A stretch of DNA of 64,000 bases, from contig JAVBPW010000001.1 in assembly GCA_031549385.1 (NCBI GenBank), forward strand, positions 390,661-454,660. Reading direction: 5' to 3'. Of this stretch, positions 2,116-27,409 are shown piece after piece; within the stretch, counting starts at the first letter, position 1; each line of letters begins with the position of its first letter. Source of the DNA: Alphaproteobacteria bacterium (GTDB lineage Bacteria; Pseudomonadota; Alphaproteobacteria; Rs-D84; SZUA-605). Made by a program: the position numbers and the translations under genes. The notes under the pieces were generated by a model. It saw nothing but the letters and a program-made list of their open reading frames with translations, searched no databases and was not told the DNA's origin.

Positions 2116-2242
2116 TTAATATCATTTTAATTATATCAAATTTTTGAATCCTTTACAATATGACAATATTCTCTTAAAAAAGATTGCAAAATTGTTATTT
2201 TTTTTCTATTATTGACCTTTGAATAAAAAAAGGAAAAAGACT

Positions 2243-5200
2243 ATGGCATATCCAAAAACTAATGTATCTGTAAACTTTGTAGAAATAGAAAAAAATATCC
2301 AAAAATTTTGGGAAGATAATAAGATTTTTATGAAGTCAATTGATATTAGAAATGGAGCAGAGGATTTTGTGTTCTTTGATGGACCTCCTACTGGTAATGG
2401 TTTGCCTCATTATGGACATTTGGCAGTGTCTGCTATGAAAGATTGCGTTTGTCGTTATAAGACTATGCAAGGGTACCGAGTTATTAGAAATTTTGGTTGG
2501 GATTGTCATGGACTTCCTGTTGAAATAGAAGTTTGTAAAGAACGTGGACTTGCTGATAGAGATGCTATTTTATCTTATGGTATAGAAAAGTTTAACGGCG
2601 AATGTAAAAAAGATGTTATGAAATATCGTTCTATTTGGGTTGATACTTTAAATAGAGTTGGCAGATGGGGTAACTTTGATGCTGAATATAAGACTATGGA
2701 TTTTTCTTATATGGAATCTGTTATGTGGGCTATTTCTGAGCTTTATAAAAATGATTTACTTTATCAAGGTTATAAAGTTATGGCTTATTCTTATGGAGCT
2801 GAAACATCACTTTCTAATTCAGAAGCTAAGATGGAATATAAGGATAAAGTTGATCCTGCTATTACTGTTGCTTTTAAATTAAAAGATGATTTCTTAAGTA
2901 AGGAAACTCATGTTCTTGTTTGGACTACTACACCTTGGACACTTTGCACTAATTTAGCTTTGGTTGTTGGAAAGGATATTGATTATTCTGTTATGGAAGA
3001 AGATGGAACACAATATATTCTTGCTTCTGCTTTGGTTGCTAATTATAAAAAACAATTAGAAAATGCTACTCTTGTTAAAACTATTAAAGGTTCGGATTTA
3101 TTAGGTAAAGAATATGTGCCTATGTTTGATTATTATGCTCATCTTGAATTTAATAACGCTTTTAAAATCTATGATGCTGATTTTGTTTCAATAACTGATG
3201 GAACTGGAATTGTGCATATGGCTCCTTATGGAGAAGATGACTTTGAAGTTTTAAAGAAAAATAGTATTCCTGTTGTTTCTCCAGTTGACGGAAAAGGTTT
3301 GTTTAATTCAGAAGTTAAAGATTATGCTGGTATGCTTGTTTTTGATGCATCAGAAAAAATTATTCAAGATTTAAAAGAAAGAGGAGTGTTGATAAAAAAA
3401 GAAAACTATACTCACTCTTATCCTTATTGTTGGAGAACTAAAACTCCACTTATTTATAGACCTATGGAATCTTGGTTTGTGAATGTGGAAAAAATAAAAC
3501 AAAATATTATTGATGAAAACAAAGAAATAACTTGGGTGCCTGAACATCTTCGTGATGGACGTTTTGGTAAATGGTTAGAGGGTGCTAAAGATTGGGGTAT
3601 TTCAAGAAATCGTTTTTGGGGATGTCCGCTTCCTATTTGGGTAAGTGATAATCCTGATTTCAAAAGAATTGATGTTTTTGGATCATACGAAGAAATTGAA
3701 AAAGTTTCTGGTCAAAAAATTAGTGATCCACATAAACCTTTTATAGATGAAATTACTTATAAAAATCCTGATGATCCTTCTGGAAAAACTTTGATGAAGA
3801 GAATTCCTGATGTTTTGGATTGTTGGTTTGAAAGTGGAGCTATGCCTTTTGCTGCTCTTCATTATCCGTTCGAAAACAAAGAATTGTTTGAGGAAAGATT
3901 CCCTGCTGACTTTATTGTCGAAGGACAAGACCAAACACGTGGATGGTTTTATACTTTGATGGTGCTTGCTGTTGCATTATTTGGAAAGAAAGCATTTAAG
4001 GTTTGTATGGTTAATGGATTGGTTTTAAATGTTGAAAAGAAAAAACTTTCTAAATCAGAAAAGAATTATGTTTCACCTGATGTATTATTTGAAAGTTTAG
4101 GGGCTGAAGCTTTTAGATGGTATATGCTTAGTTCACCTTTGTTTAAAGCTGAATCTGTGGCATTTGATGAAAAGTTAACTGCTAAGGCTATGAGAGATGC
4201 TTTGATACCTTTATGGAATAGCTATCACTTCTTTACACTTTATGCTAATGCTGATAATGTTGATGCAAAAGAAATTGTAACTTCTTCAAATGTACTTGAT
4301 AGATATATTTTAGCAAAACTTAAAAAATTGTCTGTTGATGTTAAATCTAATATAGATAATTGGTCAGTTGATAAAGCATGTGTTAAAATTGTTGATTTCT
4401 TAGACGTTTTAAATAATTGGTATATCAGACGTTCTCGTGATAGATTCTGGGGGACTGGAATAACTAAAGAAATGTCAATGGAGGCGTTTAATACTCTTTA
4501 CACTGTACTTGTTAATGTGTGTAAAACTATTGCTCCTATTATGCCTCATGTGTCAGAATTTATTTATAAAAATTTAACTAATGAAGAAAGTGTGCATTTA
4601 GTTTTATGGCCAGATTTATCAACAATAGCTGATGAAGATGATTTGATTAAGGCTATGGATCAAGTGCAAGATGTTTGCAGATGTGGTAAATTTATACGTG
4701 AAGAAGAAAGTTTGCGTAACAGATTGCCTCTTGCTTCTGCTACTGTGGTTGGAATCGAATTGGAAGATTATTCTGATGTTATTGCTGATGAGTTAAATGT
4801 TAAAAAAGTTATATTCGATAAAAATCTTCCTCAGTATGCTGATAAGTTTTTGTATTTGATTACTCCTAAGATTGGGGAACGCTTAGGTGGAGCTTTAAAA
4901 GATATTATTCCTGCTTCTAAAAAAAGTGAATATAAACTTGCTAATGGAAAGTGTATTGTTGCTGGGTTTGAATTGAATAATGATGAATTCGAAGAAAGAC
5001 TTGTTTTGAAAAATGGAGTGCATGGAAAAGCATTATCTGATAACAGTGCTGTTGTTATGCTTGATTTAGTTGTTACTCCTGAATTGAAAAAAGAAGGAAT
5101 GGTTCGTGATTTTGTTAGAGCTGTTGCTGATGAAAGAAAAGAAATAGGTTTGGAAGTTACTGACAGAATTAAGCTTTATTATGAAACAGATAATAACGAA

Positions 5201-5338
5201 GTTATAGATGCTTTTAATACTTATTCAGGATATATAAAAGAACAAGTTCTTGCAGAAGTTTTTGAGAAAAATAAGATGGCTAAAAAAGAAGTTTTATTAG
5301 GAGATGTTAAAATATATTTATATTTAACTAAAAATTAG
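2243..5338 (+). CDS. ileS: Isoleucyl-tRNA synthetase, type 2 (eukaryote-like)
   Basis: HYGH motif ('PPTGNGLPHYGHL') and KMSKS motif ('KKLSKSEKN'). The ORF-track start at 2219 is TTG; ATG at 2243 is preceded by an AAGGAAA RBS. Confidence 0.95.
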   Translation: MAYPKTNVSVNFVEIEKNIQKFWEDNKIFMKSIDIRNGAEDFVFFDGPPTGNGLPHYGHLAVSAMKDCVCRYKTMQGYRVIRNFGWDCHGLPVEIEVCKERGLADRDAILSYGIEKFNGECKKDVMKYRSIWVDTLNRVGRWGNFDAEYKTMDFSYMESVMWAISELYKNDLLYQGYKVMAYSYGAETSLSNSEAKMEYKDKVDPAITVAFKLKDDFLSKETHVLVWTTTPWTLCTNLALVVGKDIDYSVMEEDGTQYILASALVANYKKQLENATLVKTIKGSDLLGKEYVPMFDYYAHLEFNNAFKIYDADFVSITDGTGIVHMAPYGEDDFEVLKKNSIPVVSPVDGKGLFNSEVKDYAGMLVFDASEKIIQDLKERGVLIKKENYTHSYPYCWRTKTPLIYRPMESWFVNVEKIKQNIIDENKEITWVPEHLRDGRFGKWLEGAKDWGISRNRFWGCPLPIWVSDNPDFKRIDVFGSYEEIEKVSGQKISDPHKPFIDEITYKNPDDPSGKTLMKRIPDVLDCWFESGAMPFAALHYPFENKELFEERFPADFIVEGQDQTRGWFYTLMVLAVALFGKKAFKVCMVNGLVLNVEKKKLSKSEKNYVSPDVLFESLGAEAFRWYMLSSPLFKAESVAFDEKLTAKAMRDALIPLWNSYHFFTLYANADNVDAKEIVTSSNVLDRYILAKLKKLSVDVKSNIDNWSVDKACVKIVDFLDVLNNWYIRRSRDRFWGTGITKEMSMEAFNTLYTVLVNVCKTIAPIMPHVSEFIYKNLTNEESVHLVLWPDLSTIADEDDLIKAMDQVQDVCRCGKFIREEESLRNRLPLASATVVGIELEDYSDVIADELNVKKVIFDKNLPQYADKFLYLITPKIGERLGGALKDIIPASKKSEYKLANGKCIVAGFELNNDEFEERLVLKNGVHGKALSDNSAVVMLDLVVTPELKKEGMVRDFVRAVADERKEIGLEVTDRIKLYYETDNNEVIDAFNTYSGYIKEQVLAEVFEKNKMAKKEVLLGDVKIYLYLTKN

Positions 5339-5419: not shown

Positions 5420-5917
5420 ATGATAAAAGTTTCTTACGTTATTTTAGCATCTGTTTTGCTAGTATCTGGCTTTGCAGAAGCACAAAGAACAAATGATGGT
5501 ACAGCTTCACGTGCTGGAGTTAGCCGTTTAAATACTGGTGTTGCAAAACCTGCAGCGTCATCTGAAATCAGACCTGCTATTGCTAAACCGACTGTTGCTA
5601 CTGCAGTGAAACCTGTGGAAGCTCAAAAAGTTACTGAAATTGTAGAACCTGTTAAAACTACTGCTATTATAGAAGATACAGAATTAATCAAAAAGAAACA
5701 GGAAGAGTTGGCTAATAAGCAAGCTTTGAAAGAACAATTAGAACTTGAAATCTCTCAAATAGAATCTGAACAAAAACGTTGCGATAAGCAAAAGAAGAAC
5801 TGGACTATTGCAACAGTTGCTGGGTCTGTGGGAACAGTTGCTGGTACTGTGGGTGCTGTTATTCAAGGTAAAGACTTAAAAGAAAAGAAAGAAACACTTA
5901 ACGAGTTAAAGAATTAA
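5420..5917 (+). CDS. Secreted coiled-coil protein with a C-terminal glycine-zipper helix (paralog family member 1)
   Basis: Signal peptide ...SGFAEAQ. N-terminal 'AQRTN..SRAGVSR' is like that of the 731-aa protein. Coiled coil present. C-terminus 'KRCDKQKK..TVAGSVGTVAGTVGAVIQG'. Confidence 0.7.
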   Translation: MIKVSYVILASVLLVSGFAEAQRTNDGTASRAGVSRLNTGVAKPAASSEIRPAIAKPTVATAVKPVEAQKVTEIVEPVKTTAIIEDTELIKKKQEELANKQALKEQLELEISQIESEQKRCDKQKKNWTIATVAGSVGTVAGTVGAVIQGKDLKEKKETLNELKN

Positions 5918-5929
5918 AGGAATTTGAAC

Positions 5930-7213
5930 ATGAAAAAAAGTATATTAATTTTATCAGGCTTGTTGGTTTCACTTAATGCATATGCGCAACAATCAACTAA
6001 ACCTACTGGACTTGTTTTAGAAAAACCAGTTGCACCAACTGCTTCTGGAGTTTCTGCTGTATCAATAAATAGTGAAATTGAACTTGATAATGCAATATTA
6101 AAATTAGATAAAGAAATTAAAACACTTTCTGAAACTCGTCAAAAGAAAGAAGATGAACTTGATAAGTGTTCTAAATCAGTTAAAGGATTTAAAGTTGCTG
6201 GTATTTCCACTTTGTCTGCTACTGGTGTGCTTGCAGGTGTTAATATTTACCAAGGTGTTCAACAAGGTAAATTGAAAGATGAAATTAGAGATGCTTCTGT
6301 TATTAAAGCAGAAAGAGAAAAATTAGTTCAAATTATTAAAACTATTCAATCTACAAGAACAATTACTATGGATCAAATGAGAACTTTGAGAAGTAATTTG
6401 GATAAGTTAACAGAACAAGATAAAGCAGATCTTAGAACTGCTTTAACAGGAAGTAAGATTACTGTTAATTCTGAACGAGAAAAATCAGAAATGGAAGATT
6501 TCTTAAAGATGTTAGATGTTGCTGGTTATACAGTTAATGTTAATCCATTTGTTACAGTTGGTGGACATTGTGTTACTCCTGTAGAAATTTTACAATTTTC
6601 TAATCAAATTCAATATTTAGATACACCAGAAAAGTGCTGTGGAGAACATTTAGTTTGGAATGATGGTAATAATCCAGAAACTAGAAATACAAAAAATATA
6701 AGACCTTATCCAAGATGTGAATTAGATAAAGCTGGATTAGAAAAAGTTCTTGAGTTTGTTTGTAAAAATAATTTAAGATACCATAATACATACGATAATA
6801 TTTATAATTATACAAAAGAAGCCCAAGATTTATTTGAAGAAGCTTCAGGTAAAAAAGGAACTTCAGAAAAAGAATCTCTAGCAAAGATGAAAGCTTATTG
6901 CAAGAAACTTAATTTCAATAATGATTATAAATTTATAAATACAATAGAAGAAGTAAAAAAAGTTGATAATACTTTTGCAACTTTTACAGAAAAATATAAT
7001 GCTATGAAAGATAAATCAGAATTAGTGTTTGGTGATATTCAGTTTTTAATGTGGAATAAAGATTATGTTAAAAATGCTAAAGATAATGCTGTTAGAACAA
7101 GTTTAAAAGGTAAAAAAGTTGTTTTAACTGATAATGAAAAAAAACAAGCTGACCCTTGGATTAAAGAGTTAGAACTTGAATTAACAATTGAGGTTAAGGA
7201 ATCTAAGAAATAA
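5930..7213 (+). CDS. Secreted coiled-coil protein with K-C...glycine-zipper motif (family member 2)
   Basis: Signal peptide ...LNAYAQQ. Motif 'DKCSKSVKGFKVAGISTLSATGVLAGVNIYQGVQQ' is nearly identical to the one in the next gene. ATG at 5930 (track start 5924 is TTG). Confidence 0.7.
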   Translation: MKKSILILSGLLVSLNAYAQQSTKPTGLVLEKPVAPTASGVSAVSINSEIELDNAILKLDKEIKTLSETRQKKEDELDKCSKSVKGFKVAGISTLSATGVLAGVNIYQGVQQGKLKDEIRDASVIKAEREKLVQIIKTIQSTRTITMDQMRTLRSNLDKLTEQDKADLRTALTGSKITVNSEREKSEMEDFLKMLDVAGYTVNVNPFVTVGGHCVTPVEILQFSNQIQYLDTPEKCCGEHLVWNDGNNPETRNTKNIRPYPRCELDKAGLEKVLEFVCKNNLRYHNTYDNIYNYTKEAQDLFEEASGKKGTSEKESLAKMKAYCKKLNFNNDYKFINTIEEVKKVDNTFATFTEKYNAMKDKSELVFGDIQFLMWNKDYVKNAKDNAVRTSLKGKKVVLTDNEKKQADPWIKELELELTIEVKESKK

Positions 7214-7271
7214 TATCAATAAAAAATAAGGGGGGCTTGAGAAAGCCCTCTTTTTATTGTATAATATCTTT

Positions 7272-8066
7272 ATGAAAATTTTATTAGCACTATTATTGTT
7301 TTTTTCTTTTAATGGGTTTGCTCAGTCTGTTGATGCTCAGCTTTTATCTGTTAATGAAAAAATTGAAGAATTGATAAAAATAAAAGATAAAAAATTAATT
7401 GAACTTAATAAATGTGCTAGGTCTGTAAAAGGTTTTAAGGTTGCAGGGATTACTACTTTAACTGCGACTGGTGCTTTGGCAGGGGTTAATGTTTATCAAG
7501 GGGTTGAACAAATTAAAACTCAGAATGCTATTAATGATGAAAAGAGTAGATTAGAAGCTTTAAAACAAGATGAAATAAAGATTATTATTGTTCCAGGGGA
7601 AACTACTGATAGTTTAGTAAAAGATAAAAATAAAACAGAAGAAGAACTTAGAGAGCGTATTAAGAATATGACTCCTGAAGAACGACAAAAATATATAGAT
7701 AGTCAATACTGGCAAAATACTTCAGAAAAAGATATGTATGAAGCAGGTGTTGCTTATTTGGAAAAAGGTCAAAATCAAACTGCTATTGAAAGATTTAATA
7801 AGGCTTTAGAAATGAATCCTAATAATCCTTTTTCTTACTATGGAAGAGGGGCTGCAGAATATCATATAGGAAAATTAAATGAAGCTAAAGCTGATATAGA
7901 AAAATCGCTTGAACTTTGGGTGTTGGATGTAAAATTACCTTTTCATGATTTGAATGTAATATGTTTTAAATGTAGTGCTAAATATGATGAGGTTAAAAAG
8001 GTTTGCTACCGAACAGCTTCTGATGGAAAGCGAGCTGATTTGACTGATTTAAATAAATGTAAATAA
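7272..8066 (+). CDS. Secreted protein with K-C...glycine-zipper motif plus a C-terminal TPR repeat (family member 3)
   Basis: Signal peptide ...NGFAQS. Motif 'NKCARSVKGFKVAGITTLTATGALAGVNVYQGVEQ'. TPR-like segment 'AYLEKGQNQTAIERFNKALEMNPNNPFSYYGRGAAEYHIGKLNEA'. ATG at 7272 (track start 7257 is TTG). Confidence 0.65.
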   Translation: MKILLALLLFFSFNGFAQSVDAQLLSVNEKIEELIKIKDKKLIELNKCARSVKGFKVAGITTLTATGALAGVNVYQGVEQIKTQNAINDEKSRLEALKQDEIKIIIVPGETTDSLVKDKNKTEEELRERIKNMTPEERQKYIDSQYWQNTSEKDMYEAGVAYLEKGQNQTAIERFNKALEMNPNNPFSYYGRGAAEYHIGKLNEAKADIEKSLELWVLDVKLPFHDLNVICFKCSAKYDEVKKVCYRTASDGKRADLTDLNKCK

Positions 8067-22149: not shown

Positions 22150-22290
22150 TTATTCACCTGTTTGATATTCAACTGTGTTTGTTACTATTTTTTGTTTCAT
22201 TTTTGGAATGAAAAAACATAAAAATATTGCGATTACAATTAATATTATTTTAAAATATTTTCTGTGTTTGTTTTTACGAAATCTTGGCAT
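22150..22290 (-). CDS. 46-aa small membrane protein directly upstream of, and abutting, miaB (TAAATG junction)
   Basis: MPRFRKNKHRKYFKIILIVIAIFLCFFIPKMKQKIVTNTVEYQTGE: basic N-terminus plus one TM helix. Below the ORF-track size cutoff. Confidence 0.3.
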   Translation of the reverse strand: MPRFRKNKHRKYFKIILIVIAIFLCFFIPKMKQKIVTNTVEYQTGE

Positions 22291-22428
22291 TTTAACCTTC
22301 TTTATAATTTTAATTGCTTATATTATAGAAAGTATTTTATAAAAAACATTAAAAATTTAATAAAAGTGCTTTTTTTTTGTCCATTTTTGTGATATTATCT
22401 TTGTAGAGAGAAATAAAAGGAGATTTTT

Positions 22429-24624
22429 ATGAATAAAAAGTTTTTTATAGGATTGGGCGTTTTAGTAGTTGTTTTAGGTTTTAGTGCTAATGCTTATGCT
22501 CAACGTGCTAATACATCTGCAGCTGTGAAAAAACAACAAACTGGTAGAGCAGGAGTTGCACGAGCAGGAATTACACGTATAACAACTGTTGCGACAAAAG
22601 TTCCAACAAGTGGTGGTACAACTACAGATACAACAACTGATGATACAAAATTAGATTCACTTGCTTGTTCAAAAGCTTTTTATAATAAACTTGTTGAAAG
22701 TGGAGTTTGTGGGGGAGCCAACTTATCTACATGTAATGCTGATTTCAAAGTTTCTTTGATGAATGGGGATTATACAGCTTTTATGGCAAGTAAAGGTTAT
22801 ATAGCTCAAACAGTATTTACAAATTGTGATTGTGGAACTGACAGTGCTGGAACTGCTTTGGATTGTAAGAAGGTTGCTGCTATGTATGTTGGTTCTGTTA
22901 TGACTGATGGAATTATTAAAGATTATTATTCTTGCCAAAGAAGTTTTAATTCTTGTGCTAATGCAGTTTGTGGAACTGATTATGCTAATTGTGCTGATCT
23001 GTTAACAGAAAAAACTTATCCAACTGATGGAGTTGAATCTGCTCAAGCTATTTCTAGAGAATTAGAAAAGTTATTAGGTGAATTAAACTCAGGTAGTGCT
23101 TATGCTTCTACTATTTCAGGAGTTGGTACAAGACTTCAAAAAAGATTAGGAGAATGTCGCGCTAATATCTTAGATAAGTGTGAAATCGCTTCTGCTGATG
23201 GTACTTCTGATAATGCTACAAGAAGACAAGAAATCTTTGATGAATATAGAGATGGATTAATCAGAAATGGTTCAAAAGCTTTGATTGCTCGTTATGGTAA
23301 TGATGCTAAGAAAAGTATTATGGATGCATATTCATGTGTTGATTCAGTTGATGCTTGTATGAAAAAACAATGTGGAAGTGACTATAACAAATGTTTAAAT
23401 GATGACTTTACAGTTAATACTTCTGCTGTAAATAACTTCAAATCACTTTGCCAACAAGATCTTATTTCTTGTGCTGAAGTAAGAGCATTGGCTCAGTTAG
23501 AGGGATACCAATACTTAGCTGATGTTAAGGTTGACGGTGTTGCTCAAGTATGGAATGATTTTATTACAAACAGAGTGCTTGCTTATGCTAATGCAAAAGC
23601 TGTGGATCGTAAGAAATTAGAAGAAAAATTAGAAAATCTATTATCATTTGCTCAAAAGAGCTGTCAAGATAATGGTGGTGTAGTTCAATTTATCCAAGAA
23701 AAATTGGCTATCTACGACGCAAAATATGGTACATCACGTACAAACGATCAGGTTGCTAATGATACTGGATTGTTTGGAACTACTACAGTTGATGGTGATT
23801 TAGAATATTCAACAACTGCAAATGATGGAGCTCGTAAAGGGGATAGATTTTATAACAAAATGGTTTGTGCGTTCCCGTTAACAGGAAACAAAGATGCTAA
23901 TTCAAATATGCCAAAAATCATATTAATGGGTGAAAGCAAGGTTTGTGATGCTACATTCTTTGATGTTGATAAAAAAGCTGGTGGAAGAATTGTAGGTTCT
24001 ATCGTTGGTGCTGGAGTTGGTACTGCTGCTGGATTGTTGACAAGTGGTGCATTGAAGAAAGACCCATCAAAAGATATTGCTGATATTAACATAGCTATTC
24101 TTAAAGTAGAAGAATGTATAGCAGCAAAAGATGATGTTAATAAATATGATAAACTTAGAGAAGAAGCAGCTAATTTAGTTAATAAGGCTGGTGTTATGGT
24201 AACTGTTGATAATGCTTGTGATTCTGGAACAAAAGCGAGTTTGACTAAAAAGTTAGATCAAGGTGGTGGAAAATTAATTGAAAATCAAAAAGCTCAAAAT
24301 GCTGTACTTGGTACTGCTGGTGGGTTAGCTCTTGGTGCTGCTGGATTTGGTGTTGGTTCTGCTATTGATAAAAAGAATGCTGAAAAGAAACAAGATGAAT
24401 TGAAGTGTGTTGTTGGTGGAAAACAATATGCAATTGGAGAAACAATTACTGTTGCAAGAAGCTCAGCTTTCAGAGAACTTGAAGATTTCTATCAACAAAA
24501 TCCTAACTTGTTGGCAGAAAGAGGTGAATACATCAATTCTAAGTACAGAGGTGAATCTGTAGTTGCTGGACCTCAAGGAGATCAGAAAGATAGCAATATT
24601 AAGAATGAAAGTTTATTCCAATAA
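22429..24624 (+). CDS. Large secreted Cys-rich protein (731 aa) carrying two glycine-zipper helices of the 5.4-8.1 kb family
   Basis: Signal peptide ...ANAYAQR. N-terminus 'AQRAN..TGRAGVARAGITR' resembles the 5420 protein. About 30 Cys in paired CxnC spacing. 'GGRIVGSIVGAGVGTAAGLLTSGALKK' and 'NAVLGTAGGLALGAAGFGVGSAIDKK'. Strong RBS. Confidence 0.75.
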   Translation: MNKKFFIGLGVLVVVLGFSANAYAQRANTSAAVKKQQTGRAGVARAGITRITTVATKVPTSGGTTTDTTTDDTKLDSLACSKAFYNKLVESGVCGGANLSTCNADFKVSLMNGDYTAFMASKGYIAQTVFTNCDCGTDSAGTALDCKKVAAMYVGSVMTDGIIKDYYSCQRSFNSCANAVCGTDYANCADLLTEKTYPTDGVESAQAISRELEKLLGELNSGSAYASTISGVGTRLQKRLGECRANILDKCEIASADGTSDNATRRQEIFDEYRDGLIRNGSKALIARYGNDAKKSIMDAYSCVDSVDACMKKQCGSDYNKCLNDDFTVNTSAVNNFKSLCQQDLISCAEVRALAQLEGYQYLADVKVDGVAQVWNDFITNRVLAYANAKAVDRKKLEEKLENLLSFAQKSCQDNGGVVQFIQEKLAIYDAKYGTSRTNDQVANDTGLFGTTTVDGDLEYSTTANDGARKGDRFYNKMVCAFPLTGNKDANSNMPKIILMGESKVCDATFFDVDKKAGGRIVGSIVGAGVGTAAGLLTSGALKKDPSKDIADINIAILKVEECIAAKDDVNKYDKLREEAANLVNKAGVMVTVDNACDSGTKASLTKKLDQGGGKLIENQKAQNAVLGTAGGLALGAAGFGVGSAIDKKNAEKKQDELKCVVGGKQYAIGETITVARSSAFRELEDFYQQNPNLLAERGEYINSKYRGESVVAGPQGDQKDSNIKNESLFQ

Positions 24625-24636
24625 AATTTAAAAATT

Positions 24637-24666
24637 AAAGCCCCATTTTATGGGGCTTTTTTATAT
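24637..24666 (+). terminator. Intrinsic terminator (AAAGCCCCAT-TTT-ATGGGGCTTT plus T-run)
   Basis: Hairpin followed by TTTTTT. Confidence 0.7.
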
Positions 24667-24757
24667 CTTTAATATTAAAATATTTTTTAATTTTCTTTAT
24701 TTTAAATAAGTAATCTTTATAATCAATTTATATAATTAGTAAAAAGATGAGGATAAA

Positions 24758-25445: not shown

Positions 25446-26438
25446 TTATGGGTTGGTTAGCTGGAATTCTATACGTCTGTTGTATTTTCTGTGTGCTGGA
25501 GTGTCGTTTGGAGCCAATGGTTGATATTCCCCAAAGCCTGTTGGAACTAGGTATTTTGCAGGAACACCTTTTTGTGTTAGGTAAGTTACTACTGCTCTTG
25601 CTCTTGCATAAGAAAGGTCGAAATTGTCTTTAAATCTTGTATTTGTTTTGCTTAATGGAACGTTATCTGTGTGGCCGTCTACACGAACTATCCAATCTAT
25701 ATTTTCTGGAATCTTTTGAATAATATTTTTTAATATTGTCGCTACTTTATCAAGTTCTTTTTTACCATTTAATCCTATATTATCTGAACCTGGAGCAAAT
25801 AGTAATTCACCTTGTAATACAAATCTGTCACCTTTTTTTTCTATGGCTTCTTCTGAACCAATTGAGGAATTTAATTCTTGAAAGAATTGTGAACGAACTT
25901 CCATTAAGTCTGCTGTCTTATTTGCCAAAGCTCGGTTTAATTGTTTTCCTAGTTCAACAATTTCTACATCTCTTTTTAGCATTTCTACTCTATCGTTTTC
26001 TAATATAATACTTAGCTTTGATATTTCATTTGTTAATTCTTGAATCCTTCCTTTCATAGCTGTCTTTGTTAGGTTTTCTTGATTTAATAGACTGTCGTTT
26101 TCTATGATTTTGCCTTCTAGTGATGCTATTACTTGATTGTATTTATCAATTTGATCTTTGTAGGAAGTTAATTCACTTTCTTTATTATTCATATTTGATG
26201 ATAGTTGATTTATTCTGTTTTGTAGGAGAGCTATTTCTTGTTGTTTCTTTAAGTTTTCTTTGTGCAATACTTCAAAGCTTGCTTGTTGCTTTGTGGTTGT
26301 TGATAATTTGTAATTAAGTAAGAATTGAAACATTACAAATATGAATAGAAAGAATAATAATAGAGCTATTGTATTTGAAAATAAGTCTATAAATCCTGAA
26401 CCGTATGCTTCTTCAACTGTTTGGTTTTGTCTTCTCAT
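25446..26438 (-). CDS. MotB/OmpA-like protein: N-terminal TM helix, ~150-aa coiled coil, C-terminal OmpA-type peptidoglycan-binding domain
   Basis: TM 'IALLLFFLFIFVMFQFLL'. Heptad-rich residues about 45-200. C-terminus 'VRVDGHTDNVPL...LSYARARAVVTYL...NRRIEF' is an OmpA_C-like motif. Confidence 0.75.
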   Translation of the reverse strand: MRRQNQTVEEAYGSGFIDLFSNTIALLLFFLFIFVMFQFLLNYKLSTTTKQQASFEVLHKENLKKQQEIALLQNRINQLSSNMNNKESELTSYKDQIDKYNQVIASLEGKIIENDSLLNQENLTKTAMKGRIQELTNEISKLSIILENDRVEMLKRDVEIVELGKQLNRALANKTADLMEVRSQFFQELNSSIGSEEAIEKKGDRFVLQGELLFAPGSDNIGLNGKKELDKVATILKNIIQKIPENIDWIVRVDGHTDNVPLSKTNTRFKDNFDLSYARARAVVTYLTQKGVPAKYLVPTGFGEYQPLAPNDTPAHRKYNRRIEFQLTNP

Positions 26439-27409
26439 TATCCGTTCTTTTTATTCTTTATTGATTTACTTAATATTTTAATGTCATTTGAAAGTTGTGA
26501 TTTCATTATTTTTAAATCTGCTTCTACATTTGATGAACTTTCTAATCTTTTTGCTGTTACCATAAATTGTAAAGATAAGTCTTGTAAGTTTTTAATTGTT
26601 TCTGATAAAGATTTTTCTGAATTTATAATTGTATTTTCAAGTTTGTTTATTGTTTCTGCATTTTGTTCAAGCAAAGATAGAAGATATGGGGAAACATCAC
26701 CACTTGATGCTACGTTTGCATTTGAAATGATTGTTAGGGCTGAAAGATTTTCTTCTATGTAATTGTAAAAATCATTTTGAGCCAAACTTATTTGTTGATT
26801 TATGAAACTTAATATTAGGGAACATGAAAGACCTATGAATGAAGAAGAGAAAGCAATAGACATTCCATTTAATGGTTTTGATAAATCATTTTTTAATGCA
26901 TCAAATACAAGAGTGAAATCTGTTGATGTTACTGAGAAGTCTGTAATAACGCCTGATATAGAATGAATTGTTATTAAAAGGCCTAAGAATGTTCCTAAGA
27001 GGCCTAAAAAGATTAATAGGTTGGAGAAATAACGACCTGTTTCTTTGTTGTCTTGTAAACGTGAATACATTATGTCTAAGATTGATTGCAAAGAAGTTGA
27101 GTTGAGTAAAAACTTTTTTTGATTTTTTGTTATCTCATATAAAGGTAGTAAAATCTTAGGTTGTTGATTATTTGGCTTTTTATTTAAAAAATTTTTAAAC
27201 CATACTAATTCTGGTTCAAGTGTTAAAAAGTATGTGAATGATTTATATAATCCTACACTAAATACACAAATAATGATTAAATTTAGTTCTGGATTTGATA
27301 AAAATAATTTTATAAATTGCGGGAAAAATGCAAGAACTATTATTGCTATTGCTAATATAAATAACATTATATATTTGAAATATTTATCTAAAAAATTTTT
27401 TGAATTCAT
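26438..27409 (-). CDS. MotA/TolQ/ExbB-family proton-channel-like protein with a C-terminal coiled-coil tail
   Basis: Four predicted TM helices including 'FLGLLGTFLGLLITI' (MotA/ExbB GLLGT signature) and 'MSIAFSSSFIGLSCSLILSFIN'. About 120-aa coiled-coil tail. Its stop overlaps the start of the downstream MotB-like gene (TAATG). Confidence 0.75.
   Translation of the reverse strand: MNSKNFLDKYFKYIMLFILAIAIIVLAFFPQFIKLFLSNPELNLIIICVFSVGLYKSFTYFLTLEPELVWFKNFLNKKPNNQQPKILLPLYEITKNQKKFLLNSTSLQSILDIMYSRLQDNKETGRYFSNLLIFLGLLGTFLGLLITIHSISGVITDFSVTSTDFTLVFDALKNDLSKPLNGMSIAFSSSFIGLSCSLILSFINQQISLAQNDFYNYIEENLSALTIISNANVASSGDVSPYLLSLLEQNAETINKLENTIINSEKSLSETIKNLQDLSLQFMVTAKRLESSSNVEADLKIMKSQLSNDIKILSKSIKNKKNG

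What the first reader, a model, noticed from the sequence alone, without database searches (positions are those of the whole stretch)
22429..24624. 731-aa secreted, disulfide-rich protein with two glycine-zipper helices
It has a strong RBS and signal peptide. About 30 cysteines occur mostly in paired C-x(3-10)-C arrangements across residues 80-420, suggesting a disulfide-knotted extracellular domain. It is rich in Thr, Gly, Asp, Ala and Asn. The C-terminal third carries two copies of the family glycine-zipper helix ('GGRIVGSIVGAGVGTAAGLLTSGALKK', 'NAVLGTAGGLALGAAGFGVGSAIDKK'). I see no similarity to known adhesin or toxin domains. It is the largest member of the family at 5.4-8.1 kb and a candidate surface antigen or effector.
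Basis: seen in the sequence. Interest (0 to 1): 0.5.

Follow-up and report, generated by a model that had tools for sequence, protein, structure and literature searches.

The report
Disulfide-rich envelope protein with glycine-zipper hairpin
This is an intact, exported 731-residue protein of a very small, uncharacterised family from uncultured low-GC Alphaproteobacteria: a cysteine-rich helical domain joined to a two-helix glycine-zipper hairpin of the kind that anchors small outer-membrane lipoproteins such as SlyB. It is most likely a lineage-specific cell-envelope protein, not a toxin or effector.

Summary
The ORF at 22429-24624 (+) is real. It is monocistronic, with an AAAGGAG ribosome-binding site, a signal-peptidase-I signal peptide and an intrinsic terminator.

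It has 24 cysteines, not about 30. Twenty-two sit in columns conserved across its only relatives: seven clusters among 1.84 billion representative proteins, all from uncultured bacteria, and the three whose records carry a name are Alphaproteobacteria MAGs. Cysteine gains and losses come in twos, which points to disulfides.

Three 4-Cys modules (C-x6-C-x4-6-CG-x5-6-C) lie in a roughly 340-residue helical region. After them comes a small alpha/beta domain that carries a two-helix glycine-zipper hairpin.

In orthologues the hairpin loop is 10-25 residues, and two of five isolated orthologue hairpins match Pfam Gly-zipper_Omp. In this genome a unique 78-residue insert with two extra cysteines splits the hairpin.

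The gene sits at a conserved housekeeping locus, divergent from miaB-ybeY-lnt. No secretion or immunity genes are nearby, and there are no plasmid or phage relatives.

The claimed kinship with the genes at 5.4-8.1 kb is not supported, apart from one short N-terminal motif.

Best reading, at moderate confidence: a vertically inherited envelope protein, disulfide-stabilised and membrane-associated through a SlyB-like hairpin. It is a new variant of a known kind.

The parts
22390..22398 (+). Candidate extended -10 promoter element (TGaTATTAT), about 30 nt upstream of the ATG
   Evidence: Read directly from the sequence. It was not called by the consensus scan, which requires a -35 hexamer. Inference only.
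22416..22422 (+). Ribosome-binding site AAAGGAG, with a 6-nt spacer to the ATG
22429..24624 (+). Coding sequence, 731 codons plus stop
   Evidence: An identical protein is on record on a 455-kb NCBI contig and in Logan SRR23967709.
22429..22500 (+). Signal peptide, residues 1-24. It has an n-region KK, a hydrophobic core and A-Y-A|Q, i.e. a signal peptidase I type site. There is no lipobox.
   Evidence: Sequence. It is the strongest hydrophobic segment of the protein. An equivalent N-terminus is present in all full-length orthologues.
22501..22653 (+). Basic then Thr/Gly-rich linker, residues 25-75. It includes the motif QR-x-N...RAGV-x-R (family consensus SARR...RIN-x-GR-x-AGV).
   Evidence: Alignment A1. 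pLDDT is below 35, so it is predicted disordered. The motif is shared in the window only with the ORF at 5420.
22654..23673 (+). Cysteine-rich, mainly alpha-helical domain, residues 76-415, with 19 Cys. Residues 301-415 are the most conserved part of the family (43-48% identity to distant orthologues).
22666..22734 (+). 4-Cys module 1, residues 80-102. It is degenerate here: the second Cys of the module is Lys87.
22933..22992 (+). 4-Cys module 2, residues 169-188: CQRSFNSCANAVCGTDYANC
23335..23394 (+). 4-Cys module 3, residues 303-322: CVDSVDACMKKQCGSDYNKC
23674..23979 (+). First half of the small beta/alpha 'base' domain, residues 416-517. It has predicted strands at 418-425 and 474-505, interrupted by a disordered Thr/Asp/Gly-rich loop at 431-473. 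It contains conserved C480 and C506.
23980..24060 (+). Glycine-zipper helix 1, residues 518-544: G519-x3-G523-x3-G527-x3-G531-x3-G535
   Evidence: On its own it scores 17.5 bits (E = 0.004) against Pfam Gly-zipper_Omp, below the 25-bit cut-off. Its approximate membrane-insertion free energy is +3.5 kcal/mol.
24061..24294 (+). Insert in the hairpin loop that is specific to this genome, residues 545-622. It is predicted helical and holds two extra cysteines, C563 and C597. It is absent from all orthologues, including the 55%-identical P0002.
   Evidence: Its composition is native (GC 0.31, GC3 0.09) and it has no duplicate in the window.
24298..24375 (+). Glycine-zipper helix 2, residues 624-649
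   Evidence: +3.7 kcal/mol
24376..24543 (+). Second half of the base domain, residues 650-705. It contains conserved C660, predicted strands at 659-674 and helices at 679-698. The family motif is SAF-x2-LD-x-FY-x3-PEL-x-VQRGEY.
24544..24621 (+). Variable C-terminal tail, residues 706-731
24637..24667 (+). Intrinsic terminator: a 10-bp stem with 5 GC pairs and a 3-nt loop, followed by a T-run

Best explanation
This is a vertically inherited, lineage-specific cell-envelope protein.

Shown:
- It has a Sec/signal-peptidase-I signal peptide, so it is predicted to be exported across the inner membrane.
- Its cysteines behave as structural disulfides.
- It carries a two-helix glycine-zipper hairpin. 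The hairpin is embedded in a small alpha/beta domain and flanked by conserved cysteines C506 and C660.

Inferred:
- After export, the roughly 340-residue helical domain is oxidatively folded in the periplasm.
- The hairpin helices are too weakly hydrophobic to act as stop-transfer segments in SecYEG. They insert afterwards, from the periplasmic side, into a membrane, most likely the outer membrane as in SlyB, Pcp and the 17-kDa antigen.
- Insertion probably goes with self-association through glycine-zipper packing.
- The protein therefore ends up as a membrane-anchored, disulfide-stiffened structural or stabilising element of the envelope.
- If the hairpin spans the outer membrane, the 78-residue insert with two cysteines at the hairpin tip would be the surface-exposed, lineage-variable part.
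For: Gene and export:
- Intact monocistronic gene with RBS, signal peptide and terminator.

Disulfides:
- 22 Cys columns are conserved in 6-7 of 7 sequences.
- Mature proteins have even Cys counts: 24, 24, 24, 30 and 24.
- The window protein lost two conserved Cys together (K87, A126) and gained two together inside the insert (C563, C597).
- P0005 lost two together and gained six in one insertion.

Hairpin:
- In orthologues the two zippers are separated by only 10-25 residues.
- P0005 scores 27 bits against Pfam Gly-zipper_Omp (cut-off 25).
- Among five isolated orthologue hairpins, two match Gly-zipper_Omp (best E 8.9e-8) and one matches Rick_17kDa_Anti 'Glycine zipper 2TM' (8.2e-5).
- The best PDB sequence match of the family profile is the SlyB hairpin (7ojf residues 59-112). 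It is not significant (E = 0.79).
- Summed Hessa-scale insertion energies are +3.5 and +3.7 kcal/mol for the two zippers. The SlyB helix gives +4.4 (sequence from memory). The best transmembrane helices of inner-membrane proteins in the same window give -3.8 to about +2.

Synteny:
- The order lnt-ybeY-miaB-47-aa ORF, divergent from the target, is shared with MAG SZUA-605, although IF2, NusA and MiaB are only 58-64% identical.
- Two other orthologues (P0003, P0004) sit divergent from rpsF-rpsR-rplI.

Host envelope and mobility:
- The host is a diderm with LPS. LpxA, LpxB, LptF/G, Lnt and MlaA are in the window.
- There are no plasmid, phage, PHROG or PADLOC relatives.

Literature:
- SlyB and YfgH are 2TM glycine-zipper outer-membrane lipoproteins that oligomerise and stabilise the outer membrane (bioRxiv 10.64898/2025.12.22.696046 and 10.64898/2026.06.08.730324).
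Against: - There is no lipobox, so the Lol route used by all characterised glycine-zipper outer-membrane proteins is unavailable. No route to the outer membrane is known for such a protein.
- The window protein's own hairpin does not reach the Pfam cut-off. Nothing matches at full length, and zipper 1 alone scores 17.5 bits.
- Similarity between glycine zippers is largely compositional.
- The structure model is only moderately confident (mean pLDDT 57.5) and poor in the zippers. No disulfide map or oligomer could be examined.
- Some genuine multi-pass transmembrane helices in the window also score +3 to +4 on the crude scale, so the energy argument is not decisive.
- There are no expression or localisation data.
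Confidence: 0.45

Rival explanations
1. It is an inner-membrane-anchored periplasmic protein. The two zipper helices are true transmembrane segments that span the cytoplasmic membrane as a hairpin. Both large domains lie in the periplasm and the loop, here with the 78-residue insert, lies in the cytoplasm.
For: - There is no lipobox and no beta-barrel, so retention at the inner membrane is the default for a Sec substrate with hydrophobic segments.
- Kyte-Doolittle means of 1.56 and 1.48 over 19 residues are near the usual transmembrane threshold.
- The loops of several orthologues are net positive, for example P0005, in line with the positive-inside rule.
- Some real multi-pass helices in the window have similar crude insertion energies.
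Against: - Insertion energies of +3.5 to +5 kcal/mol are well above those of anchoring helices of single- and few-pass proteins in the window.
- Both sides of the hairpin are Lys-rich, so charge bias is not clear.
- The two cysteines gained together in the loop insert suggest an oxidising compartment. That is a weak argument.
- The hairpin matches the Pfam families of outer-membrane proteins.
Confidence: 0.22
2. It is a released or surface-associated membrane-damaging toxin or effector. The glycine-zipper hairpin forms pores in a target membrane, by analogy with Caulobacter CdzC/CdzD, VacA, glycine-zipper T6SS/T7SS toxins, or the hydrophobic hairpin of pore-forming colicins.
For: - Glycine zippers are recurrent in pore-forming and contact-dependent killing proteins (PMC5380434, PMC12955049, PMC10240207).
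- The protein is exported.
- It evolves faster than its neighbours: 34% identity in the conserved core against 47-64% for the neighbouring genes.
- It has a variable insert.
Against: - No T1SS, T6SS or immunity gene is adjacent. The neighbours are miaB-ybeY-lnt, a Vut_1 transporter, rpsF-rpsR-rplI and plsX-fabH.
- The chromosomal position is conserved across deep divergence, which indicates vertical inheritance.
- It is monocistronic.
- There are no relatives on plasmids or phages.
- Bacteriocin family hits are only noise: NCBIfam CTB E = 0.87, Bacteriocin_IIc E = 3.2.
- At 731 aa with a large conserved disulfide-rich domain, it is unlike the small Cdz and class II proteins.
Confidence: 0.12
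3. It is a soluble periplasmic or secreted multimer. The glycine-rich helices serve only for protein-protein packing and never enter a bilayer.
For: - The hydrophobicity of the zippers is marginal.
- The hairpin is embedded in a folded alpha/beta domain and could be stapled by C506 and C660.
- AlphaFold gives no confident membrane-like hairpin.
Against: - Long uninterrupted (G/A/S-x3)n runs free of charge, about 22-25 residues long and in pairs, are typical of membrane-inserted zippers, and they match the Pfam 2TM families.
- Low AlphaFold confidence in 2TM zippers is also reported for genuine SlyB paralogues (bioRxiv 10.64898/2026.06.08.730324).
Confidence: 0.15
4. It is an artefact: a chance ORF or a fusion of pseudogenes.
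For: None found.
Against: - It aligns colinearly over its full length with orthologues of 686-793 aa.
- Cysteine columns are conserved.
- It has an RBS and a terminator.
- An identical protein was recovered from two independent assemblies.
Confidence: 0.01

Closest known systems
SlyB / Pcp / YfgH / rickettsial 17-kDa antigen: 2TM glycine-zipper outer-membrane lipoproteins (Pfam Gly-zipper_Omp PF13488, Rick_17kDa_Anti PF05433)
   Same: - All have a pair of adjacent G/A/S-x3-repeat helices, about 20-25 residues each, joined by a short loop and followed by a small periplasmic domain.
- Orthologue hairpins reach Pfam significance.
- The hydrophobicity is similarly marginal.
- The host is a diderm with LPS.
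   Different: - It has no lipobox or lipid anchor.
- It is 731 aa against about 150.
- A roughly 340-residue disulfide-rich helical domain precedes the hairpin.
- The hairpin is inserted inside an alpha/beta domain and flanked by conserved cysteines.
- In this genome a 78-residue insert splits the hairpin loop.
- The window protein itself is below the Pfam cut-off.
Caulobacter CdzC/CdzD glycine-zipper contact-dependent bacteriocins (PMC5380434)
   Same: They are alphaproteobacterial, exported, glycine-zipper-containing and cell-surface associated.
   Different: As I recall the paper, which I found by search but did not read here, the Cdz proteins are small, are exported by a dedicated type I system and have a linked immunity gene. 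None of these features is present here.
Twin-Cx9C (CHCH) and twin-Cx3C helix-loop-helix proteins of the mitochondrial intermembrane space (from general knowledge)
   Same: Both have short helical modules with two pairs of cysteines at fixed helical spacing (here C-x6-C ... C-x5-6-C), and both are oxidatively folded in the compartment outside the inner membrane.
   Different: The spacing differs (x6 rather than x9 or x3). There is no sequence similarity. Disulfide connectivity here is unknown: the co-loss of K87 and A126 suggests at least one bond leaves its module. This is an analogy only.
P0009, an unannotated 1154-aa metagenome protein that is a distant relative
   Same: - It has the same build: signal peptide, Thr/Ser linker, five copies of the 4-Cys module and two glycine-rich helices near the C-terminus.
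- hhalign probability is 95%, E = 2e-8, over 224 columns.
- It lies next to lpxD.
   Different: It is much longer and has extra domains. Only the Cys-module region aligns significantly. It is equally uncharacterised.

Membership tests
Glycine-zipper 2TM outer-membrane proteins (SlyB/Pcp/17-kDa antigen; Pfam PF13488, PF05433) | Two adjacent small-x3-small helices forming one hairpin | tested here: met
   Zippers lie at residues 518-544 and 624-649. In all orthologues they are 10-25 residues apart. In the window protein the loop carries a 78-residue insert.
Glycine-zipper 2TM outer-membrane proteins (SlyB/Pcp/17-kDa antigen; Pfam PF13488, PF05433) | Score above the Pfam gathering cut-off | tested here: not met
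   The window protein has no hit at full length. Zipper 1 alone scores 17.5 bits against a cut-off of 25. Orthologue P0005 does pass at 27 bits, and the best isolated orthologue hairpin reaches E = 8.9e-8.
Glycine-zipper 2TM outer-membrane proteins (SlyB/Pcp/17-kDa antigen; Pfam PF13488, PF05433) | Lipoprotein signal peptide (lipobox with +1 Cys) for Lol-dependent delivery to the outer membrane | tested here: not met
   The signal peptide ends ...SANAYA|QR and the first Cys is residue 80. No aligned orthologue has a Cys at the predicted signal-peptide cleavage site; the one Cys in an orthologue signal peptide (P0007) lies in its hydrophobic core.
Glycine-zipper 2TM outer-membrane proteins (SlyB/Pcp/17-kDa antigen; Pfam PF13488, PF05433) | Outer-membrane localisation and ring-like oligomerisation | not testable with these tools
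   This needs fractionation or cryo-EM, or at least multimer structure prediction, which was not available.
Glycine-zipper bacteriocins and contact-dependent toxins (Cdz, class II bacteriocins, CTB family) | Small precursor, a dedicated exporter (T1SS or double-glycine leader) and an adjacent immunity gene | tested here: not met
   The protein is 731 aa with a Sec signal peptide. Its neighbours are housekeeping genes at four loci. NCBIfam CTB gives E = 0.87 and Bacteriocin_IIc gives E = 3.2.
Known cysteine-rich envelope proteins (TraN, chlamydial OmcB, Helicobacter Sel1-like Hcp) | Match to the corresponding Pfam or NCBIfam model | tested here: not met
   Full Pfam-A and NCBIfam scans of the protein, and Pfam-A scans of four orthologues, gave no hit to any such family.
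   BLASTP best E = 1.5. hhalign of A1 against A4 aligns 18 signal-peptide columns at probability 9.9%. Only the motif AQR-x-N...RAGV-x-R is shared, with the ORF at 5420.
New family defined here (P0001-P0008) | Signal peptide, basic SARR/RIN-x-GR linker, three 4-Cys modules, the VDGV-x2-VW core, a glycine-zipper hairpin flanked by conserved Cys, and a C-terminal PEL-x-VQRGEY motif | tested here: met
   phmmer E-values run from 1e-11 to 1e-76. See also alignment A1, the Cys columns and the modules.

The most novel reading that the evidence does not exclude
The family would be a new class of alpha-helical outer-membrane protein that needs neither a lipid anchor (Lol) nor a beta-barrel (BAM). A disulfide-stapled glycine-zipper hairpin would insert into and span the outer membrane. 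The hairpin tip would be displayed on the cell surface; in this genome it is enlarged to a 78-residue, two-cysteine helical module. The large twin-Cx6C helical domain would form a disulfide-stiffened periplasmic scaffold, and the domain would be a new fold.
Probability: 0.12. Interest if true: 0.7.

Novelty: new variant of a known kind. Interest (0 to 1): 0.38.

Why it matters
If the reading holds, glycine-zipper hairpins would no longer be only a feature of small stress lipoproteins. They would also serve as a modular membrane anchor for large, oxidatively folded envelope proteins in a poorly known, uncultured alphaproteobacterial lineage. That raises the question of how a non-lipidated helical protein reaches its membrane.

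The repeated C-x6-C-x4-6-CG-x5-6-C module has no match in Pfam, NCBIfam or the PDB. It is a candidate new disulfide-stabilised helical domain.

In practice, the result removes an 'effector or toxin' label that the context does not support.

Tried and rejected
Searches that found nothing useful:
- The word-indexed homology search with the protein, with alignment A1 and with core alignment A2 found only the protein itself plus the weak P0009. Low-complexity words probably swamp the candidates. The exhaustive phmmer search was what found the family.
- The single-sequence AlphaFold model was useless (pLDDT 35.6).
- The afdb50 library was not available.
- The metagenome-contig scan with core patterns found no further relative.
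- The first genome scan, with the full alignment, failed for lack of conserved stretches. It succeeded with A2.
- PDB sequence searches gave nothing for the protein. The profiles gave only an insignificant SlyB hit and noise for the hairpin alone.
- PHROGs, PADLOC, plasmid tblastn and phage tblastn gave nothing.

Ideas rejected:
- Metal or Fe-S binding by the Cys motifs. The protein is exported by Sec rather than Tat, there is no CxxCH motif, this protein has no histidine at all, and the parity and co-loss pattern fits disulfides.
- A functional link to the MotA/MotB-like pair downstream. It is not conserved in SZUA-605.
- Recent duplication or foreign origin of the loop insert. It has no duplicate and its composition is native.
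Full report
**Observation.**
The ORF at 22429..24624 (+) encodes 731 residues. AAAGGAG lies at 22416-22422, six bases before the ATG. A hairpin with a 10-bp stem and five GC pairs, followed by a T-run, lies at 24637-24659, 13 bases after the stop. The upstream gene, miaB, is on the other strand, so the gene is monocistronic.

The N-terminus is MNKKFFIGLGVLVVVLGFSANAYA|QR, a signal-peptidase-I type signal peptide. There is no lipobox, and the first cysteine is residue 80.

The protein has 24 cysteines, not about 30. That is 3.3% against 1.05% in the other 59 long ORFs of the window (P = 1.5e-6). Nineteen of them lie between residues 80 and 412.

The first is a perfect (G-x3)4-G run, which turns up in only 97 of 20,000 shuffles of the protein.

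**Relatives.**
Pfam, NCBIfam, PHROGs, PADLOC and PDB sequences give nothing for the protein. The word-indexed search finds only the protein itself.

An exhaustive phmmer search of 1.84 billion representative proteins finds seven relatives, with E-values from 1e-11 to 1e-76 and 27-55% identity.
- The full-length ones are 686-793 aa and align colinearly from signal peptide to C-terminus. The ORF is therefore intact and not a pseudogene fusion.
- The closest relative, P0002, is a contig-end fragment. Its contig starts with an Illumina adapter.
- Where records carry a title, it reads 'MAG: Alphaproteobacteria bacterium': SZUA-605, ZodW_Metabat.18 and ZodW_Metabat.337.
- A 1154-aa metagenome protein, P0009, is a more distant relative with the same build (hhalign probability 95%, E = 2e-8).
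- There are no plasmid or phage relatives.

**Anatomy.**
1. Signal peptide, residues 1-24.
2. Residues 25-75: a basic then Thr/Gly-rich linker, predicted disordered, with the family motif SARR...RIN-x-GR-x-AGV (here QRAN...GRAGVARAGITRI).
3. Residues 76-415: a mainly helical region with 19 cysteines. It holds three copies of a module C-x6-C-x4-6-CG-x5-6-C at 80-102, 169-188 and 303-322. The first copy has lost its second Cys here. P0009 has five copies. Residues 301-415 are the best conserved part, at 43-48% identity to distant orthologues.
4. Residues 416-517 together with 650-705: a small beta/alpha domain carrying conserved C480, C506 and C660 and the C-terminal motif SAF-x2-LD-x-FY-x3-PEL-x-VQRGEY.
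5. The two glycine-zipper helices, inserted between the two halves of that domain.

In every orthologue the zippers are separated by only 10-25 residues, so they form one helical hairpin. In the window protein the loop holds a 78-residue insert (545-622) that is predicted helical and contains two additional cysteines. Even the 55%-identical P0002 lacks it. The insert has native base composition and no duplicate in the window.

**Disulfides.**
Twenty-two Cys columns are conserved in six or seven of the seven sequences that cover them. Full-length members have even mature counts: 24, 24, 24 and 30, plus 25 in P0007, one of which lies in its signal peptide.

Changes come in twos:
- The window protein lacks two conserved Cys (Lys87, Ala126) and has two new ones (C563, C597).
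- P0005 lacks two others and has six extra in a single insertion.

Together with Sec export, this pattern argues that all the cysteines are paired.

**The hairpin.**
- P0005 passes the Pfam cut-off for Gly-zipper_Omp (27 bits against 25).
- Two of five isolated orthologue hairpins match Gly-zipper_Omp (best E 8.9e-8), and single members match Rick_17kDa_Anti 'Glycine zipper 2TM' (8.2e-5) and Gly-zipper_YMGG (0.0023).
- The window protein's zipper 1 alone scores 17.5 bits, below the cut-off.
- The best PDB sequence match of the family profile is the hairpin of SlyB, 7ojf residues 59-112. At E = 0.79 it is not significant.
- A crude sum of Hessa-scale insertion energies gives +3.5 and +3.7 kcal/mol for the two helices and +2.2 to +5.3 for the orthologues. 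The SlyB helix gives +4.4, using a sequence recalled from memory. The best helices of genuine inner-membrane proteins in the window give -3.8 to about +2.

These helices are thus unlikely to act as stop-transfer segments, and they resemble those of the outer-membrane glycine-zipper lipoproteins. SlyB and YfgH are described as 2TM glycine-zipper outer-membrane lipoproteins that oligomerise and stabilise the outer membrane under stress (bioRxiv 10.64898/2025.12.22.696046 and 10.64898/2026.06.08.730324).

**Structure.**
The single-sequence model failed (pLDDT 35.6). With the 8-sequence alignment the model reaches pLDDT 57.5, with 271 residues at 70 or above. These lie mostly in 165-430, 470-510, 550-600 and 660-700. 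The zippers are poorly modelled.

**Context.**
The window is a housekeeping stretch of a diderm with about 30% GC. It includes IleRS, LysRS, MiaB, YbeY, Lnt, MlaA, NusA, IF2, LptF/G, LpxA, LpxB and SecD.

The order lnt-ybeY-miaB-small ORF, divergent from the target, is the same in SZUA-605. There MiaB, NusA and IF2 are 58-64% identical to the window's proteins, Lnt is 47% and the target is 34% over its core. Two other orthologues (P0003, P0004) sit divergent from rpsF-rpsR-rplI; P0007 has a different upstream neighbourhood. No secretion-system, immunity or mobile-element gene is adjacent at any locus.

The gene looks like a vertically inherited component that evolves faster than its neighbours.

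**The claimed local family.**
The three tandem ORFs at 5420-8066 each have a signal peptide, a coiled-coil stretch, a Cys and one small-residue helix. The ORFs at 5924 and 7257 are clear paralogues of each other in their N-terminal 110 residues.

Neither BLASTP nor hhalign links them to the target beyond the signal peptide, and they do not hit the glycine-zipper Pfam families.

The one specific link is the motif AQR-x-N...RAGV-x-R directly after the signal peptide. In all six reading frames of the window it occurs only in the target and in the 165-aa ORF at 5420. Its meaning is unknown; it could be a shared sorting or anchoring element.

**Interpretation.**
My best-supported account has confidence about 0.45. 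The protein is exported by Sec. Its helical domain is oxidatively folded. The glycine-zipper hairpin then inserts after translocation into a membrane from the periplasmic side, most plausibly the outer membrane by analogy with SlyB-type proteins, and probably with self-association. The result would be a disulfide-stiffened structural or stabilising element of the envelope.

Export, the disulfide pattern, the hairpin architecture and vertical inheritance rest on sequence and comparative evidence obtained here. The target membrane, oligomerisation and the role are inferred.

The main weakness is the missing lipid anchor. No route to the outer membrane is known for such a protein, so an inner-membrane hairpin (0.22) or a soluble multimer (0.15) remain serious rivals. 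A toxin or effector role (0.12) is disfavoured by the context.

**Verdict.**
This is a real feature, not an artefact. It is a tiny, uncharacterised family that combines a known kind of membrane hairpin with an unmatched cysteine-module domain, so I rate it a new variant of a known kind. The interest is moderate: the architecture is unusual and the family is nearly orphan, but nothing yet points to a new mechanism.

Noticed in passing
window 5420-8066 (+): Three tandem unannotated genes for exported proteins: 165 aa, about 427 aa and about 264 aa. Each has a signal peptide, a coiled-coil stretch, a Cys and one small-residue (G/A/S/T) helix. The ORFs at 5924 and 7257 share a near-identical module, KC-x-[KR]SVKGFKVAGI[ST]TL[ST]ATG-x-LAGVN[IV]YQGV. 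The third carries TPR repeats at its C-terminus. The glycine-zipper-like module has no Pfam match.
   Followed up: partly
window 5420-5917 and 22501-22570: The motif AQR-x-N...RAGV-x-R lies immediately after the signal-peptide cleavage site. In the whole window it occurs only in the 165-aa ORF and in the target. The target's orthologues have the related SARR...RIN-x-GR-x-AGV. It may be a sorting or anchoring signal. Its function is unknown.
   Followed up: partly
window 22150-22290 (-): A 46-aa ORF with a basic N-terminus and one hydrophobic helix lies just upstream of miaB on the same strand. A counterpart of 47 aa occupies the same position in MAG SZUA-605 (L005 6390-6533).
   Followed up: partly
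window 25446-27409 (-): A MotA/ExbB-like protein (323 aa, weak Pfam hit) is followed by an OmpA/MotB-like protein (330 aa) with a long coiled-coil between its transmembrane helix and its OmpA domain. No flagellar or Tol genes are seen nearby. The pair is not adjacent to the target's orthologue in SZUA-605.
   Followed up: no
window 1-64000: No tRNA gene (ARAGORN) and no Rfam family at gathering threshold was found anywhere in the 64 kb, despite dense housekeeping content.
   Followed up: yes
window 2219-5338 (+): The isoleucyl-tRNA synthetase is the type with a DUF5915 C-terminal domain. It scores about 700 bits against the MupA/MupB (mupirocin-resistant) models, below their cut-offs.
   Followed up: no
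L010 1-30: The metagenome contig that carries the closest relative, P0002, begins with an Illumina adapter sequence (ctctttccctacacgacgctcttccgatct). The 286-aa 'protein' is therefore a contig-end fragment of a full-length orthologue.
   Followed up: yes
window 22429-24621: The 731-residue protein contains no histidine and only one tryptophan. Its orthologues do have conserved His, for example in HCG and ETHAK.
   Followed up: no
L003 1-1018 and 15159-16007: The SZUA-605 contig that carries the orthologue also encodes a pyruvate:ferredoxin oxidoreductase and a DsbA-like thioredoxin-fold protein. Several relatives come from sulfidic or anoxic sites, judging by the MAG names. This lineage may be anaerobic yet keep periplasmic oxidative folding.
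   Followed up: no
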